Shown here: positions 3,001-42,300 of the stretch, piece after piece | Layout of the letters: the number at the start of each line of letters is the position of its first letter | How positions within the stretch are numbered: position 1 is the first letter of the stretch | Assembly: GCA_030324005.1 (NCBI GenBank) | Contig: JARDVH010000121.1 | Location: 9,737,539-9,801,538 of the forward strand | Direction of reading: 5' to 3' | Length of the DNA: 64,000 nt | Origin: Negaprion brevirostris | Lineage: Eukaryota | Made by a program: the position numbers

Positions 3001-6000
3001 CGATTTGTCTGGCACTTCAGTAAGAACACGTTTCCGCATCAATATATACTATGAAGTCCGCTAGCAGCGCAATATTTCGAAATGTATCTTCTCCTACCGT
3101 TGTTGAAATCGAAAAAAATCCCATTTGTCAGGCTTCCCATACTGCTGCCTTTGAAAAAGCGGCTGCATTTCAAAGAAATAAACTTGAGCTTTGCAATTGA
3201 TCCCACGAATCACAATTCCACAGATTTTATCTCCCATTTCATGGTATCAATTTGATTTGAATATTCAGGCGAATCTTAAACCACATGGGACATTTATCCA
3301 TATGTCTCCGTTTTCCGTTGCGTTGTTTTGGAAAACATTTAGAAAATGTATTGTTGTTTTCGAATGTTTTTGAAGCAGACTATATGCAAAACAAAAACAT
3401 GTATAGTCTCATGAATTGAACTTGACCTGCTCTTTTGCCGCATGTCACAGTTGTAGGGCTGGACTCACGTCCAAAAGCTGTGGAAGATCCAGGTAAGGAA
3501 AATAATGTTTTATTTTGAAATCCAATGGTAAACATTTCAACTTGGATCAGCGATAGTCACCTGTTTTCAATTCGTCTGATTCTCGTCGCAAATGGTGTCG
3601 ATGCAACTGAAAATAAACAGAGTGTAGAATTTGCCGAGCACGCATTACACTCTTAATGCCAGTACTTTCGGATGGAAGGGAATCCATGGGGAGTTGGCGG
3701 ATGTTCGTGCAGGGAAAGTACATATGGCGAAGTTATGTCTTAGTTCATATGACTATTCTTGCAATATAGACAGTTGATTTATTCCCGCAGCATTGGCGTC
3801 AACCGCAGAATGACATGTGAAGTTTAAAATTGTGCTGTTCAATCTGAATGTCAGTAATTGACGCGTTACAGAAAAGAAGCTGAAAGCCAAGCATGACGGT
3901 ACCTGGTTTAAAAATACATTTCCCAGCATTTCATAATCAAAGCACTTAGAAAGAAAATAGTGACAGAGGAATACTATTCAGTCAATCAATATTTTCTACT
4001 TGTAGGGGATTCAATATTGATTCTCTTAATCTTTGGCAAAATCATTTTGTCATTGAAATATAAACATGACTCAAAGCATTTCACTGATTGCTTGTATTAT
4101 GCTAGAGAAAACCATGATGATGTAACTGGTAACAATGAAGGGAATTGGTTTTATCAGTCGTTATAAATATATGACATTGTTCAGGTAATAGAGTCTGGAC
4201 CATTTCAAATCTACACCTCCGCTCACTACCCACTACTTATTCGTTGCCGCCAATTTCTTAGAGATCAAGACGTTACATTTAGCACAACCTCGCTTTCACA
4301 CAACCCCACCAGCATATCCCAGTACTGAACTTTATCCTTATTATTTGTGAGGATGATTAATATTTAGTTTCTCACAGTTAAGAAATTCGCATGTTAAATT
4401 TCAAATTGCAATAATCGAAGAGGTTCATAGCAATTAATATGTGTCCTTAAATTAATGAATTTGAGGAAAAATGATTGAGCTGACTTCCCCGAAATGTCGT
4501 GCAATTCTGTAATTATATCAAGGAAAATAATACATAAATTGTTGGGTCTAGCTGTAAAATTCAAGACGAGGCATTAGACACGATGTCTTTGATTCATCTG
4601 CAATGTTGCAGGTAAGCCCACACGATTATATGCTGCTAAACATTATTGGACTTTAGATTAGCAAGGCATTCATGCGGCGTTCCTCAATCATTCTTCCTCA
4701 AATACGTAAATCCAATGGCACATATGACGTGCGTTGAAACGCAAGTTGTAATCTAATCCAGGTCTAAACGTGTGTTTAAACTCATTTAAACGTAGATGAA
4801 AACAAGTTGTGTATCTTGGAACTTGTTTGAATTGTTGAAGCATTCTTCCTCATAGACTGATTGTTTTCAGTATAGAGAAGGCGTTCCGAGTCTGTGTTCA
4901 TGTGATTCGGTTGAGTATGGACAATTTGGCAAAGGAGCCTAGGATTAAGATCACGAAACTTTTGATATGAATGGCAGGACAGGCTGAAGAGTTCACATGT
5001 TTGTTGCTGTTCCAAATGTGCATATTCATGCCAAAGGTAGTTTGGAAATTTCGTGCAAAATACATACATTCACTTTGTCTGATTCATGTGTTCTCACTTT
5101 CGTCTTGCAGCACTGGAAAATTTCCAATAATTAGCAAATAATGCCTTTGTTGTTGAAACTCCCGGAACATAATTTCGGAATCACTCATTTTGTTTTTTTT
5201 TTAATGGAGTTATACATGGCTACTCTCCTTTGCCTGGGTTCCACAATTTTTCCAACCCCCATAACGATTGATTACGTTCTTGGGAAAGTACGTTTGACAT
5301 AAAGACCAATCTGAACCAAGCGAATATAATATAAGGGAACACATCAACCTTCTACGTGTCGTGTGTGAGCATCCATTTCCTTAATTAGTGTCCACAGTAC
5401 AGAGTTAAGCTTTTGAAATATTGAATTAATTATGCTATTGATTGTTGCATTCATAACGTGTCTCTCCAGTTCAGTGTTGATCACCGGCCAAAAACAAAAA
5501 GACAACTCACAGAAGGGAAGCAAATTTTGCGGCCCGAATTCAGGAACAATGTTAAACGGTCACCATATGACCATGGTTGCTCCCCGTCCGAGAGTGCGAG
5601 GTTACTGGCGACGAGCAAGTTTGAGAATAAGAGTGCGCCTGAATAATCTGAGCCAGCTGTCACGCTATATGCATGCTGTTGACGTAGCTTTGTAAATCAG
5701 GCCAGTCGTCCGAAAACTGAGGTAAACAAATTGGAAGAGCGGCTCGCGCTGCTGCGTCACAGCGAACAGGACCCGCTTTCGATTTGAAGCTTCGTCACTG
5801 TTTCGTCTGGGGCGGCACGTTCTGCCGTGTCTGGTTGGGTTTTCCATGACTGTTCCGGTTTCCTCCCACAGTCCGAAGGAACTGCGAGTTAGGTGCGTAG
5901 GTTATGCTAAACAAAAACTCTCTCCGTGAACATGTGCAAGCTTCTAAGCTTGGTTGCTAGGGGAATTTCGCCGAAACTCTATTGCGCTGTTCATATATGC

Positions 6001-6337
6001 CTACTTGACAAACTAATAGATAAACTTGAAATAAATTCCGCGGCTATTGATAGGGAACTGCAAGTGTTATTGTTTTGTTCCTGCGACTATTATCGAGATT
6101 CAACAGTTCTCGTGGCTCATAATTCTTTGTTCCTGTTACACCTACGGAGAATAATTTATATTGCATCGTAAAATAATCCCGAAGTTTTACATCGATGCAA
6201 TTTGCCCGACACCAGTGTCGGCAATCTGGGGAAATGGCTAACGGCCCCTTAACTGATGTATTCATCTTGAATACTGGGATTGGATCAACTGTTGAAGCTC
6301 AGACTTCAAAATGAATTGAGACTTTGGCTGTCAAACA

Positions 6338-39300: not shown

Positions 39301-42300
39301 TCGAGGCAACATGCTTCAATGATTATCTTTGTTCCATTACCATGCCAGAAGTTGTGGTGTTGGCTGATAATTGTAGGACGTTTGGCACCTTTTGAGAATT
39401 AATCGACACTGGAACTTTCAAAGCCCAAATGCAGGAAGACCTAGACAATATACCTATCTCACAATGACCACGCGCAGAATGTTACAACATACAATATGGA
39501 CATAATATAATATGAATTGGTGTTCAATGGCATTTGTAACACAGAATCCCCTATTGCCGCAATCTTCTGGTTCGCCATTATTCTTAGTCTATATCGAGCA
39601 GGCACTGAATTACAAAAATTGATCAGATCCGACGAGGAAACATTGAACACATGTCTCAGATCGTGCCAACAATCTTCAAGACACAATTTGGGAGCTGATT
39701 AGCCGCTGGAGGAGTGCAACTAACAGGACAATCTGGGACTGGAAATGAGCAAGGATGAATGCAATATGAACATGTGTTTTCGTCTGATTGAATTTTAACT
39801 CATGCTCCTGAAACAAAATTTAGAAAAATGCAAGTATCGGACACAAACGCCCGTTTAAAAATTAATGGATATTGCAAAATCTGCGTTCTTTTCCATACCT
39901 ACGCCGTGACACATGGCTTTGCAGTCTTGGTAGGTCGTAAATGATGATTCCGCAGAAAATTGTCCATCGCTGGTGAACTCCATCTGTACATGCCTACGAC
40001 TTACGCAGTTTTATTTGCTCAACATGCGGCATGGAATGTTTTTGGTACCAGTCCTCGGTTGTTCCTTTTTTGCTGCAGTGTTGGCCATCAATAGGCATGC
40101 TTTGCGTCCACTCTATGGACTTTTTGAATGATCTTGACGTTTGTTTTGGGACATGAATAACAAACTAAAATAATGCAATCGCACATCTGCTTGTAACTAC
40201 TCAAAGGATAATTGCAGGGTGCTGGCGGCAATTATGATTAATTTGCACTGCCTCCCCTCAAAATAAATAAATACCTACTCGGCTGTCGTTCCCAGAAATG
40301 ACAAGACAGCATGGATTTAAATTTACTCAAGCTGAGACGTATCCAAATTATGTTGTCCTAACTCCGCTGAAACTGAAGATTGTGTCATTCATACAAACGT
40401 TTGTTGTGTTTCCTAATTCTTTATTGTAAACGTTAACGAAATAAAAAGTCAAATTAAAAGATCGCGTTAATTGCGCTCGATCTTAGCATTTGACAACGAC
40501 AAGACGATGTGTGGTTTTCTTGTTTATATTTGGTAATTCCAAGCTGAATTAGCGTACGCAATTTTCGTGGCATTAATGAAAGTAACATGCAAAATGTACC
40601 AGGTTAAGGTGACGGCATGCTGACTGCTACGGCGTCTATTTGATTTATTGCTGCACTGTAATTATGTTAAATTATGTTGGTGTGACTCCAATTGTGATAA
40701 TTTACTGTAGCATTTATTGTGTGATTAGACTTTGATTTGATTTGATTGTTCGCTGTTGCAGGCGCACTTTGAAATAGGTGCCAGGCCCATTTTCATTCAC
40801 ATTACAGGGAACGTACTAAGATCGCTTTGCATATGGCGATATGGCGTACAAAGATTGCATTGTCAGCCTTTTCACCTTGATATTTATAAGCTGCAACCGA
40901 GTATCGGCATGGCTTTAATTTATTTATATTGTTGTATGTTATAAAATAACACCACGCAATGCACATATTAGTACACGAGAAAATGCTGAAGGTCAGTGGA
41001 CTTTGGAGTATATATCTGCAGACAATTGAACGGGACAACACAGTTAAATAATGTGGTTAATTTGGTAAATGTAATACATGTATTTATTAACCGAGGCATA
41101 GAACATGAGGACAAAGATTGCGTGCTGGAATAGTATAAACCAATTGTGAACCGACACCTAAAGTACGGCGTGCAGGATTTTTTAGTGGCCACGTGTTTAA
41201 TGGGGCGACGTGATGTAATTGAAGATGCAAAGTAAATTCAACAGCAACTCATCCTTGCGAAGATTTGCAATTATTGTGATAAAACAAATGAGCTAGGACT
41301 GTTTCGGCAGGAAAAAGAACAGTTGAAGGTGGGACTTGATATAGTTGTGTCGGAATATGAGTGGCATTGATACCATGTGTAGAAATGCATTTGAATCACT
41401 CGTACTGAGTGAAATGAACAGGGTAAGAGAATGAAGTTGAGGAATAAAAACATAACTGACTAGTTGAGGTGCAAATAATTGATTCAGAGAGTTCTGGGAA
41501 TCTGTAACCACTGGCTGATAGTTTGGATGAGTCAAAATCTGTTGTAACGTTTATGTGTTTAGATATGATTCATGCTGCCATAAATTGCAGTGCTATGGAC
41601 CGATCACTGGGAATTTTGTACGTTTAATGAGATATTTGGTGTCCTGCTAAAATATTTTGGCAGAATGATTTTCTGTCTTTTTAACTTCATTGAACATGAT
41701 GCAAAGAGCATGGTATCCAGGATTAATTCGCCCGACTCCGCTTGTCATCACAACATAATATATGTTTAGTGTCAATGCATTTCTTGGCTTTAAAAGCAGG
41801 AACACAATCATTTTTAAAAACACAAAAACAAAAAAAAAAGAGCAAAAGAACGAAGCTTTCAACTGTCTTCAATTCCCCAACATTTTATCGTATGGCGCGT
41901 TATATACATGGCTAATTTGAAGTTCACCAATTGTGACCAGTAGTCAATCATGGATAGACTGTTTTTTCAACTTCTTGGAACATGGTCGCTATTTCACGTA
42001 CAATCACAAGCATACCCCTCTTTCCCGACATTCCTCAAACAAATTCACCTTGAGAAAACTAAGCTTCGATACATCCAATGTTCTGTAAAGGGTGATATGG
42101 ACTCGAAGCGCCAGATACTTTTTTCTCTCCTTACAGATGCTACAAGACTTGCTGACATTTTCCTGCATTTTTCCCTTTTAGGTTCACGTTACAGCATCTG
42201 CAAACAATCGTTTTTATGCACTGTAATACAATTTATTCATGCAGTATGGCACCCCTTAACAACTACGTCTGTGATGAAACCTTTAGCCCATCCTACAGCC

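What the first reader, a model, noticed from the sequence alone, without database searches (positions are those of the whole stretch)
5686..40991. Birth and death of exons: copies switched off by single splice-site changes
Seen: 16222-16257 is followed by GGaagt and 27599-27634 by ATgagg, although both keep good acceptors and the most consensus-like peptides. Copies at 5686-5721 and 12660-12686 contain stops and a broken site. Because every exon is a phase-1 multiple of three, skipping any of them keeps the frame. Inference: length and heptad register of the coiled coil can vary among alleles, species or isoforms. The alternative is that the whole locus is a decaying pseudogene.
[Added by the scan's program, not by the reader: the finding's places include an assembly gap (unread letters, written N; its length is only estimated) at 18070 to 18399, 21330 to 21980, 26468 to 26489, 29407 to 29424, 31938 to 32037, 37863 to 37872. 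Whether the letters on both sides are continuous or in frame is not known: test that first.]
Basis: partly seen in the sequence, partly recalled or inferred. Interest (0 to 1): 0.65.

Follow-up and report, generated by a model that had tools for sequence, protein, structure and literature searches.

The report
Coiled-coil mini-exon array, three donors lost
A long stretch of this fish-like genome carries repeated pairs of tiny exons that would build a helical stalk protein, and a few well-kept copies have lost the signal needed to splice them in, which is an ordinary way for repeated exons to die.

Summary
The core observation holds. The + strand carries two families of mini-exons. Family A has 9 copies of 36 nt and family B has 8 copies of 27 nt. 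Six times an A copy is followed 305-396 nt later by a B copy. Only the phase-1 frame is open in all 17 copies. A plus B gives 63 nt, or 21 residues, with hydrophobic positions at heptad spacing and a Cys in 7 of 9 A copies.

Copies 16222-16257 and 27599-27634 are followed by GG and AT instead of GT. They keep good acceptors, rank 1st and 4th of 9 for family likeness, and have no in-frame GT substitute. A third copy, 42439-42474, is followed by CT but has an in-frame GT 6 nt upstream.

The two "decayed copies" at 5686 and 12660 are not recognisable family members. No assembly gap lies within 1.1 kb of a robust copy.

In-frame skipping of the donor-less copies is the likely outcome, as known from casein genes, but it is untested. 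A recently dead whole locus is not excluded (P of seeing no stops is 0.10-0.38).

The gene is unidentified. This is an ordinary phenomenon, neatly displayed.

The parts
3457..3492 (+). A-type mini-exon (36 nt), AG and GTAAGG intact. Peptide LDSRPKAVEDP; divergent, no Cys.
   Evidence: 26.7 bits; leave-one-out matrix score 10.3
3872..3898 (+). B-type mini-exon (27 nt), AG/GT intact; partner of 3457 (intron 379 nt)
   Evidence: (28.8 bits)
1972..1998 (+). B-type mini-exon (27 nt), AG/GT intact; no robust A partner upstream
   Evidence: 23.3 bits; the A-like candidate 1551-1583 is not supported by the DNA matrix
8991..9026 (+). A-type copy. The AG at the family register is absent and an AG lies 3 nt inside, giving a 33-nt exon 8994-9026. 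Donor GTAAGG. No B partner found within 650 nt.
   Evidence: (26.3 bits)
16222..16257 (+). A-type copy named in the finding. Good acceptor, followed by GGAAGT (no GT), open frame. Most family-like copy. Read-through meets a stop after 2 codons, and an AATAAA follows.
16630..16656 (+). B-type copy paired with 16222 (intron 372 nt). TG in place of the acceptor AG; in-frame AG 3 nt inside (24-nt exon) or 21 nt upstream (48-nt exon). Donor GT intact. Most family-like B peptide.
20140..20175 (+). A-type copy. The AG at the family register is absent and an AG lies 3 nt inside, giving a 33-nt exon 20143-20175. Donor GTGACA. No robust B partner.
   Evidence: (31.8 bits)
27599..27634 (+). A-type copy named in the finding. 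Good acceptor, followed by ATGAGG (no GT), open frame, no in-frame GT donor.
28018..28044 (+). B-type mini-exon, AG/GT intact; partner of 27599 (intron 383 nt)
   Evidence: (22.3 bits)
34738..34773 (+). A-type mini-exon, AG/GTAAGA intact. Divergent; membership rests on flanks and on pairing with 35086.
   Evidence: (E 1.9 before it entered the model), (23.3 bits); leave-one-out exon-only score only 2.4
35086..35112 (+). B-type mini-exon, AG/GT intact; partner of 34738 (intron 312 nt)
36228..36263 (+). A-type mini-exon, AG/GTAAGC intact; closest relative of 16222 (75% identity)
   Evidence: (35.1 bits)
36660..36686 (+). B-type mini-exon, weaker member. AG/GTAAGC intact, at the expected distance after 36228 (intron 396 nt).
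   Evidence: (17.0 bits); leave-one-out score -2.9, so the support is positional
42439..42474 (+). A-type copy outside the finding's range. Good acceptor, followed by CTGAGG (no GT). An in-frame GT 6 nt upstream would give a 30-nt exon.
   Evidence: leave-one-out 21.3
44762..44797 (+). A-type mini-exon, AG/GTAAGT intact; no Cys
   Evidence: 29.0 bits
45103..45129 (+). B-type mini-exon, AG/GT intact; partner of 44762 (intron 305 nt)
   Evidence: (E 0.015 before it entered the model)
56650..56676 (+). B-type mini-exon, AG/GT intact; no A partner found upstream
   Evidence: (24.0 bits)
6586..6612 (+). Candidate B-like exon only (27 nt). Very good ttacag/GTAAGT sites, open frame.
   Evidence: exon-only matrix score in the top 0.6% of positions; about 2 such candidates are expected by chance
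26939..26968 (+). Candidate B-like exon only (30 nt). caacag/GTGAGT sites, open frame. Lies 450 nt after the 22-N gap.
   Evidence: matrix score in the top 0.15% of positions
50537..50589 (+). Candidate decayed A-like copy: stop in the family frame, no GT, length change. Borderline.
   Evidence: nhmmer E 0.19 and 0.66; sequence read
63583..63642 (+). Candidate decayed A-like copy. Borderline.
   Evidence: nhmmer E 0.29 and 13; sequence read

Best explanation
The window holds part of a large gene, or a gene that was alive until recently, on the + strand. Its coding sequence is a tandem array of mini-exon pairs: a 36-nt exon, a short intron of about 300-400 nt, then a 27-nt exon. All exons are phase 1-1. 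Each pair encodes 21 residues, or three heptads, of an alpha-helical coiled coil with a Cys at a core position. That pattern fits a disulphide-linked stalk. Phase 1-1 modules suggest an extracellular protein, which is inference from general knowledge.

The array arose by old duplications of the pair. Introns are now unrelated in sequence, while the exons were kept by selection. In two copies (16222, 27599) and a third (42439), a single position of the GT donor differs while the rest of the donor motif, the acceptor and the open frame are intact.

Without a donor a short internal exon is not defined and is skipped. Because every exon is symmetric, the transcript stays in frame and the stalk is shortened by 12 residues per lost A exon. 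Their high family likeness shows the losses are recent relative to the duplications.

Shown: the array, the frame, the heptad pattern and the states of the splice sites. Inferred: skipping, that the gene is still alive, and the stalk function.
For: Repeat families were found independently by the repeat finder and nhmmer. All 17 robust copies are on the + strand. They score 17-35 bits against 7.0 or less for everything else (members were in the model, and leave-one-out values are).

Splice sites at the family register: AG in 7/9 A and 7/8 B copies, GT in 6/9 A and 8/8 B copies.

Phase-1 is the only frame open in 17/17 copies. B exons vary least at codon position 2 (0.32) and most at position 3 (0.57). 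Exon pairwise difference is about 0.44, against 0.70 in flanks. Self-blastn finds no intron similarity. A-B introns are 305-396 nt in 6/6 pairs.

Hydrophobic residues sit at unit positions 2 (8/9), 5 (7/9, Cys in 7/9), 9 (9/9), 12 (7/9) and 16 (8/8).

The donor-less copies keep positions +3 to +6 of the donor motif. 16222 and 27599 lack any in-frame GT.

All three copies lacking the register AG have an AG exactly 3 nt inside. Among A copies this holds for 2 of 2 without the register AG against 0 of 7 with it (Fisher p = 1/36 by hand). This argues for selection to keep splicing and frame.

Precedent: single donor-site substitutions cause constitutive in-frame skipping of 24-39-nt casein exons (PMC12470106, passages read).
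Against: No transcript, orthologue or read-level evidence was available.

The gene is unidentified. No other domain was found in 140 ORFs of 76 aa or more on both strands, or in 124 + strand ORFs of 38-75 aa from 1-3416 and 45254-64000 (124 of 361 such ORFs).

Three of nine A donors are lost, all in well-kept copies. This is also what a recent release of the whole locus from selection would produce. Under that model 1.0-2.4 stops are expected and none is seen, with P = 0.10-0.38, so it is not excluded.

Exon-only matrices do not separate the weaker members from background: A 34738 (2.4) and 3457 (10.3), against a best non-member of 10.4; and four of eight B copies, against a best non-member of 16.6.

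Detection used mostly ungapped methods, so copies with indels are under-counted.

The assembly is a draft, with 12 N runs in 64 kb.
Confidence: 0.55

Rival explanations
1. The whole locus is a recently inactivated pseudogene. All exons were released from selection at about the same time, and the lost donors are simply the first visible hits.
For: Hits on essential splice dinucleotides number 3 of 9 A donors, plus 3 acceptors changed at the family register. They fall in copies that show no other decay, as expected if decay has only begun. The absence of stops is compatible, with P(0) = 0.10-0.38. No start, end or other domain of a gene is visible in 64 kb.
Against: All 17 copies are open, and every length variant is a multiple of three. 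All three lost register AGs are replaced by an AG exactly 3 nt inside, which looks like maintained splicing rather than random damage. B donors are intact in 8/8 copies.
Confidence: 0.25
2. The non-GT donors are base errors of a draft assembly, or one haplotype of a heterozygous site, and the exons are normal in the animal or in its other allele.
Against: Three independent errors landing on donor dinucleotides of one small family is very unlikely at ordinary error rates (inference). All three sites lie well inside contiguous sequence, at least 1.1 kb from any gap. A heterozygous site would support the allelic version of the main reading, not refute it.
Confidence: 0.1
3. The donor-less copies are still used in a non-canonical way: as alternative last exons, or through rare non-GT donors.
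For: Reading through 16222 gives two more codons, a stop at 16263-16265 and AATAAA at 16265-16270.
Against: AATAAA/ATTAAA occurs 1.14 times per kb on this strand. Neither is found within 400 nt after 27599 or 42439. The motif after 16222 sits where related copies have similar A-rich intron starts. ATGAGG does not resemble the U12-type donor, and the next acceptor is AG (motif recalled, not from a call). GG and CT donors are extremely rare (general knowledge).
Confidence: 0.05
4. The copies are chance similarities or pieces of a dispersed repeat, not exons.
For: Exon-only scores of the weakest members overlap background. The B exon is A-rich and of low complexity.
Against: All copies share one strand. 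AG/GT sites appear at the same register in 28 of 34 sites. A single frame is open in 17/17 copies. Regular A-B spacing holds in 6/6 pairs. The same splice-plus-peptide filter passes 20 rows on the + strand against 2 on the - strand.
Confidence: 0.03

Closest known systems
Allele-specific exon skipping in casein genes CSN1S1/CSN1S2 through donor-site mutations (PMC12470106; passages read)
   Same: The genes are built of many very short exons. Single substitutions in the donor, for example at +1 of an intron after a 24-nt exon, cause constitutive skipping of the upstream exon, and the protein stays in frame minus 8-13 residues.
   Different: There the skipping was measured in transcripts and proteins and is allelic. 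Here nothing is measured. Caseins are not coiled coils, and their exons are not an array of duplicated pairs. My recollection that casein-family introns are phase 0 comes from no call; these are phase 1.
Helical neck or stalk of type II C-type lectin receptors (CD23 heptad stalk: PMC6791321, passages read; DC-SIGNR 23-residue neck repeats: PMC2971551, search listing and abstract start only)
   Same: Repeated helical units project a head domain and drive oligomerisation. A 21-residue unit of three heptads matches what I recall of the CD23 stalk repeats. That they are encoded by separate 63-bp exons and differ in number between species is recalled; it was seen in no call.
   Different: No lectin domain or any other domain was found in the window. 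No sequence comparison was possible. Here the 63-nt unit is split into 36 + 27 nt and carries a core Cys. Membership is untested.
Tandem exon duplication arrays (PMC9013439 and PMC8373072; search listing and abstract starts only)
   Same: Exons are duplicated in tandem within a gene and kept with their splice sites.
   Different: Those papers stress mutually exclusive use of the duplicates. Here the duplicates would be additive cassettes that lengthen a periodic structure.
Tandem (NAGNAG-type) acceptors (recalled, no call)
   Same: An acceptor is displaced by exactly 3 nt, adding or removing one codon, as at 8994, 20143 and 16633.
   Different: Here the upstream AG is absent, so the shift would be fixed rather than alternative.

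Membership tests
Tandem array of duplicated symmetric coding exons | Several related copies on one strand, each bounded by AG and GT at the same register | tested here: met
   9 A and 8 B copies, all on the + strand. AG in 14/17 and GT in 14/17 at the family register.
Tandem array of duplicated symmetric coding exons | One shared open frame, same intron phase at both ends, length a multiple of three | tested here: met
   The phase-1 frame is open in 17/17 copies; the other frames have stops in 7/9, 1/9, 7/8 and 5/8. Lengths are 36, 33, 30, 27 and 24 nt.
Tandem array of duplicated symmetric coding exons | Exons conserved above their introns | tested here: met
   Pairwise difference is about 0.44 in exons against 0.70-0.72 in flanks. 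No intron similarity by self-blastn.
Alpha-helical coiled coil | Hydrophobic residues at a/d heptad spacing (3-4-3-4) | tested here: met
   Unit positions 2, 5, 9, 12 and 16 are hydrophobic in 7-9 of 9 (A) or 8 of 8 (B) copies. Position 19 is weak at 2/8. No coiled-coil predictor or fold was run, because each exon is under 30 residues and the joined model was left out.
Exon silenced by donor loss (skipped cassette) | Canonical GT absent with no usable in-frame substitute | tested here: met
   16222 (GG) and 27599 (AT) have no in-frame GT within 200 nt. 42439 (CT) has an in-frame GT 6 nt upstream.
Exon silenced by donor loss (skipped cassette) | Exon absent from mature transcripts | not testable with these tools
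Type II C-type lectin receptor with helical neck (CD23-like) | C-type lectin domain encoded downstream of the repeats | tested here: inconclusive
   No Lectin_C or other domain in ORFs of the window. The gene evidently runs beyond both ends of the window.
Type II C-type lectin receptor with helical neck (CD23-like) | Sequence homology of the repeat to known neck repeats | not testable with these tools
The joined model was not searched, by instruction.
Unitary pseudogene | Stops or frameshifts in formerly coding exons | tested here: not met
   0 stops and no length change other than multiples of three in 17 robust copies. This is weak, since P(0 stops) = 0.10-0.38 under recent decay.
U12-type (AT-AC) intron | Donor with the extended U12 motif and a non-AG acceptor | tested here: not met
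   The site reads ATGAGG and the next exon's acceptor is AG. The U12 motif itself is recalled.

The most novel reading that the evidence does not exclude
The locus is a living gene whose disulphide-linked coiled-coil stalk is tuned in length by switching exon copies on and off through single donor-site changes. The genome then holds a reserve of well-kept but silent copies. Alleles or sister species would differ in which copies are spliced, and loss of an A exon alone (12 residues) would introduce a deliberate break in heptad register, unlike loss of an A+B pair (21 residues).
Probability: 0.2. Interest if true: 0.5.

Novelty: new member of a known kind. Interest (0 to 1): 0.3.

Why it matters
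If the gene is alive, it is a clean natural example of how an array of symmetric mini-exons lets a periodic protein change length by point mutations at splice sites without ever breaking the frame. It would also show how heptad periodicity constrains which losses are tolerated.

For annotation it is a warning. Homology-based gene models would wrongly include the best-looking copies (16222, 27599), and splice-aware models would drop them.

Nothing here opens a long-standing question. The phenomenon itself is textbook.

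Tried and rejected

2. Pfam scans gave only reverse-transcriptase fragments and sub-threshold noise. They covered 140 ORFs of 76 aa or more on both strands and 124 of 361 + strand ORFs of 38-75 aa. The remaining 237 shorter ORFs, between 3.4 and 45 kb, were not scanned.

3. Rfam at gathering threshold gave 0 matches.

5. The B-like match at 54046-54072 (family D4) was rejected. 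It lies inside an ORF (53655-54137) in a stretch that matches the reverse-transcriptase-bearing repeat at 22.9-23.6 kb, it has TG instead of AG, and it was dropped before the second model.

6. A-like candidates 1551-1583 and 6185-6214 sit at the right distance before B copies with faint peptide likeness. They are not supported by the DNA matrix; 9-14% of all positions score as well.

7. I thought the 118-nt x3 tandem repeat at 50850-51210 might derive from copy 42439. Its profile hits 42472-42493 only at E 7.6, so I rejected the idea.

8. Rescue of 16222 by a nearby GT combined with alternative acceptors of 16630: no combination I counted by hand restores the frame.

9. Seven literature searches for a named gene with 21-residue or 63-bp coiled-coil exon repeats found none that fits. 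One returned zero papers.

10. The end coordinate 40991 is a GAAG|GTCAGT site. A 27-nt window ending there scores in the top 0.4% for the weak B matrix but has no AG. It is left as unassigned.

Full report
**What is there**

The window is eukaryotic, AT-rich DNA with 12 runs of N totalling 1551 N. It has no long coding ORF. Pfam scans covered 140 stop-to-stop ORFs of 76 aa or more on both strands. They also covered 124 of the 361 + strand ORFs of 38-75 aa, those in 1-3416 and 45254-64000. Both gave only reverse-transcriptase fragments and sub-threshold noise. Rfam gave nothing. Nothing suggested a human origin.

The repeat finder picked out two families of short direct repeats, all on the + strand and separated by kilobases (families D2/D5 and D4). 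Profile searches extended them. A second round fixed the sets:
- Nine A copies of 36 nt, starting at 3457, 8991, 16222, 20140, 27599, 34738, 36228, 42439 and 44762.
- Eight B copies of 27 nt, starting at 1972, 3872, 16630, 28018, 35086, 36660, 45103 and 56650.

In one search the members score 17.0-35.1 bits and everything else scores 7.0 or less. That is partly circular, because the members built the model.

Three members were found before entering a model:
- 34738 (E 1.9)
- 45103 (E 0.015)
- 36660 (by position only)

Leave-one-out exon-only matrices give, for A:

| Copy | Score |
|---|---|
| 16222 | 33.6 |
| 36228 | 30.0 |
| 20140 | 29.3 |
| 27599 | 29.0 |
| 42439 | 21.3 |
| 8991 | 17.7 |
| 44762 | 15.9 |
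| 3457 | 10.3 |
| 34738 | 2.4 |

The best non-member scores 10.4. For B the values run from 25.0 down to -2.9, against a best non-member of 16.6. So the weaker members (34738, 3457, 36660, 1972, 45103) rest on splice flanks and position, not on exon letters alone.

**Why they are exons**

- *Splice sites.* At the family register AG precedes 7/9 A and 7/8 B copies. GT follows 6/9 A and 8/8 B copies, usually as GTAAG or GTGAG after a pyrimidine-rich tract.
- *Frame.* The frame whose codons start at exon base 3 (intron phase 1 at both ends) is open in 17/17 copies. The other two frames have stops in 7/9 and 1/9 A copies and in 7/8 and 5/8 B copies.
- *Codon positions.* In B, codon position 2 varies least (0.32) and position 3 most (0.57). 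In A the periodicity is weak.
- *Conservation.* Exons differ pairwise by about 0.44, while flanks 20-50 nt away differ by 0.70-0.72, which is random. Self-blastn finds no intron similarity.
- *Spacing.* Six times an A copy is followed by a B copy after an intron of 305-396 nt. The introns between pairs are 1.1 to more than 10 kb and hold the repeats and the gaps.
- *Control.* A filter combining AG/GT, open frame, pyrimidine tract, donor motif and peptide likeness passes 20 of 1172 candidates on the + strand and 2 of 1159 on the - strand.

**What they encode**

A plus B is 63 nt, or 21 residues. By column, hydrophobic residues fall as follows:

| Unit position | Hydrophobic |
|---|---|
| 2 | 8/9 |
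| 5 | 7/9 (Cys in 7/9) |
| 9 | 9/9 |
| 12 | 7/9 |
| 16 | 8/8 |
| 19 | 2/8 (weak) |

This is the 3-4-3-4 spacing of a coiled coil, three heptads per pair, with a Cys at a core position.

The gene could not be named. The joined step was left out, so no homology search or fold of the joined model was run. An extracellular stalk, like the necks of type II lectin receptors, is an analogy from the phase 1-1 architecture and the periodicity. It is not a tested membership.

**The finding itself**

The two named copies are as described. 16222-16257 has a good acceptor and is followed by GGAAGT. 27599-27634 has a good acceptor and is followed by ATGAGG. Each keeps the rest of the donor motif. They are the 1st and 4th most family-like of nine by DNA and by peptide. 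Neither has an in-frame GT within 200 nt. The only in-frame options are GC sites in poor context or lie behind stops.

I add three things:
- A third A copy, 42439-42474, is followed by CTGAGG. It could use an in-frame AAG|GTTCAG 6 nt upstream, giving a 30-nt exon.
- The B partner of 16222 (16630-16656) has TG where the AG should be. It has in-frame AGs 3 nt inside and 21 nt upstream, so it need not be dead.
- Copies 8991 and 20140 also lack the register AG and have an AG exactly 3 nt inside, giving 33-nt exons. Among A copies that inner AG occurs in 2 of 2 copies lacking the register AG and 0 of 7 having it (Fisher p = 1/36, by hand). This looks like maintained splicing and frame.

The two "copies with stops and a broken site" are literally as described. 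But they are not recognisable relatives. They appear in no nhmmer list. Their matrix scores are matched by 1464 of 123988 positions (5686) and 32861 of 124222 positions (12660). Better, though still borderline, candidates for old decayed copies lie at 50537-50589 (E 0.19) and 63583-63642 (E 0.29).

**The gaps**

The six gaps within the range lie 1110-6293 nt from the nearest robust copy. No exon or splice site touches a gap. Because every exon is self-contained and phase 1-1, frame across a gap is not an issue. All six gap-bounded segments that hold robust copies have them on the + strand (compared by hand). Continuity, order and true gap length cannot be tested here. An A-B module of about 440 nt could be hidden in the 651-N gap if its estimated length is right. 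The 22-N gap lies 450 nt before the candidate B-like exon at 26939, where a partner would be expected. I did not fill or look up any gap.

**How it most likely works**

A short internal exon without a donor is not defined and is skipped. This is documented for 24-39-nt casein exons after single donor-site substitutions (PMC12470106, passages read). Here skipping keeps the frame.

- Losing an A exon alone removes 12 residues and shifts the heptad register by 5.
- Losing a pair removes 21 residues and keeps the register.

The losses must be recent. The introns have been randomised since the duplications, yet the donor-less copies are no more diverged than intact ones. For example, 16222 is 69-75% identical to 20140, 27599 and 36228, while 20140 and 36228 are 67% identical to each other. 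There is no sign of recent birth, since the closest pair is 75% identical. "Death" is what is seen, not "birth and death".

**The main rival**

If the whole locus lost function recently, splice dinucleotides would be hit at the observed rate: 3/34 donor positions, or 4-6 of 68 splice positions. In that case 1.0-2.4 new stops would be expected in the 489 whole-codon sites. None is seen, with P = 0.10-0.38. This does not exclude the pseudogene.

Against it stand the in-frame acceptor shifts, the 8/8 intact B donors and the absence of frame-breaking length changes. The last point carries a caveat: my detection favours ungapped copies.

I put the live-gene reading at about 0.55, the recent pseudogene at 0.25, an assembly or haplotype artefact at 0.10, and non-canonical use at 0.05. 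Non-canonical use draws on the stop plus AATAAA right after 16222. That motif occurs 1.14 times per kb by chance and is absent after the other two copies.

**Comparison and verdict**

This is the known kind of event, silencing of duplicated symmetric exons by splice-site mutation, in a gene I could not name. The closest documented analogue in mechanism is casein exon skipping. The closest in architecture are the helical neck repeats of lectin receptors. For these I read passages of PMC6791321 and only the listing for PMC2971551. The detail that CD23 repeats are separate 63-bp exons is recalled and was seen in no call. Seven literature searches found no described gene with this 36 + 27-nt pair structure. 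That shows only that these word searches did not find one.

Interest is modest.

Noticed in passing
window 8991-9026 and 20140-20175: The two A copies with the acceptor shifted 3 nt inward (33-nt exons) share an Ala-Leu at the same peptide columns, unlike the other copies. Both also lack a detectable B partner within 650 nt. They may be a separate 11-residue exon subtype within a higher-order repeat.
   Followed up: partly
window 16263-16270: Directly after the donor-less copy 16222, the read-through frame stops after two codons and a canonical AATAAA overlaps the stop. This is probably chance, since related copies have similar A-rich intron starts.
   Followed up: partly
window 50850-51210: Three tandem copies of a 118-nt unit, 65-80% alike. 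It was not found by Tandem Repeats Finder at score 60 and has no significant relation to the exon families.
   Followed up: yes
window 18400-18472 and 37873-37887: A perfect (AAG)24 microsatellite abuts the right edge of the 330-N gap, and a run of about 15 G abuts the right edge of the 10-N gap. Simple sequence probably caused these assembly breaks.
   Followed up: no
window 15147-15578 (-), 22629-22970 (+), 30734-31237 (+), about 53655-54470 (+): Fragments of reverse-transcriptase-bearing retroelements lie in the long introns. The stretches at 22.9-23.6 kb and 53.8-54.5 kb match each other at 72-83%. They were only scanned as they stand.
   Followed up: no
window 31488-31888 and 32850-33237: Two direct copies, 83-88% alike and about 1.35 kb apart, flank the 100-N gap at 31938-32037 (D1/D10/D20). 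This is either a local duplication inside a retroelement or a possible assembly redundancy.
   Followed up: no
window 767-899, 45538-45673, 47115-47234, 58688-58769: Four copies of a short dispersed repeat, 65-78% alike, probably a SINE.
   Followed up: no
window 40965-40991: The finding's end coordinate is a GAAG|GTCAGT site. The 27 nt before it score in the top 0.4% for the weak B matrix but have no acceptor AG and no in-frame inner AG. It is unassigned.
   Followed up: partly
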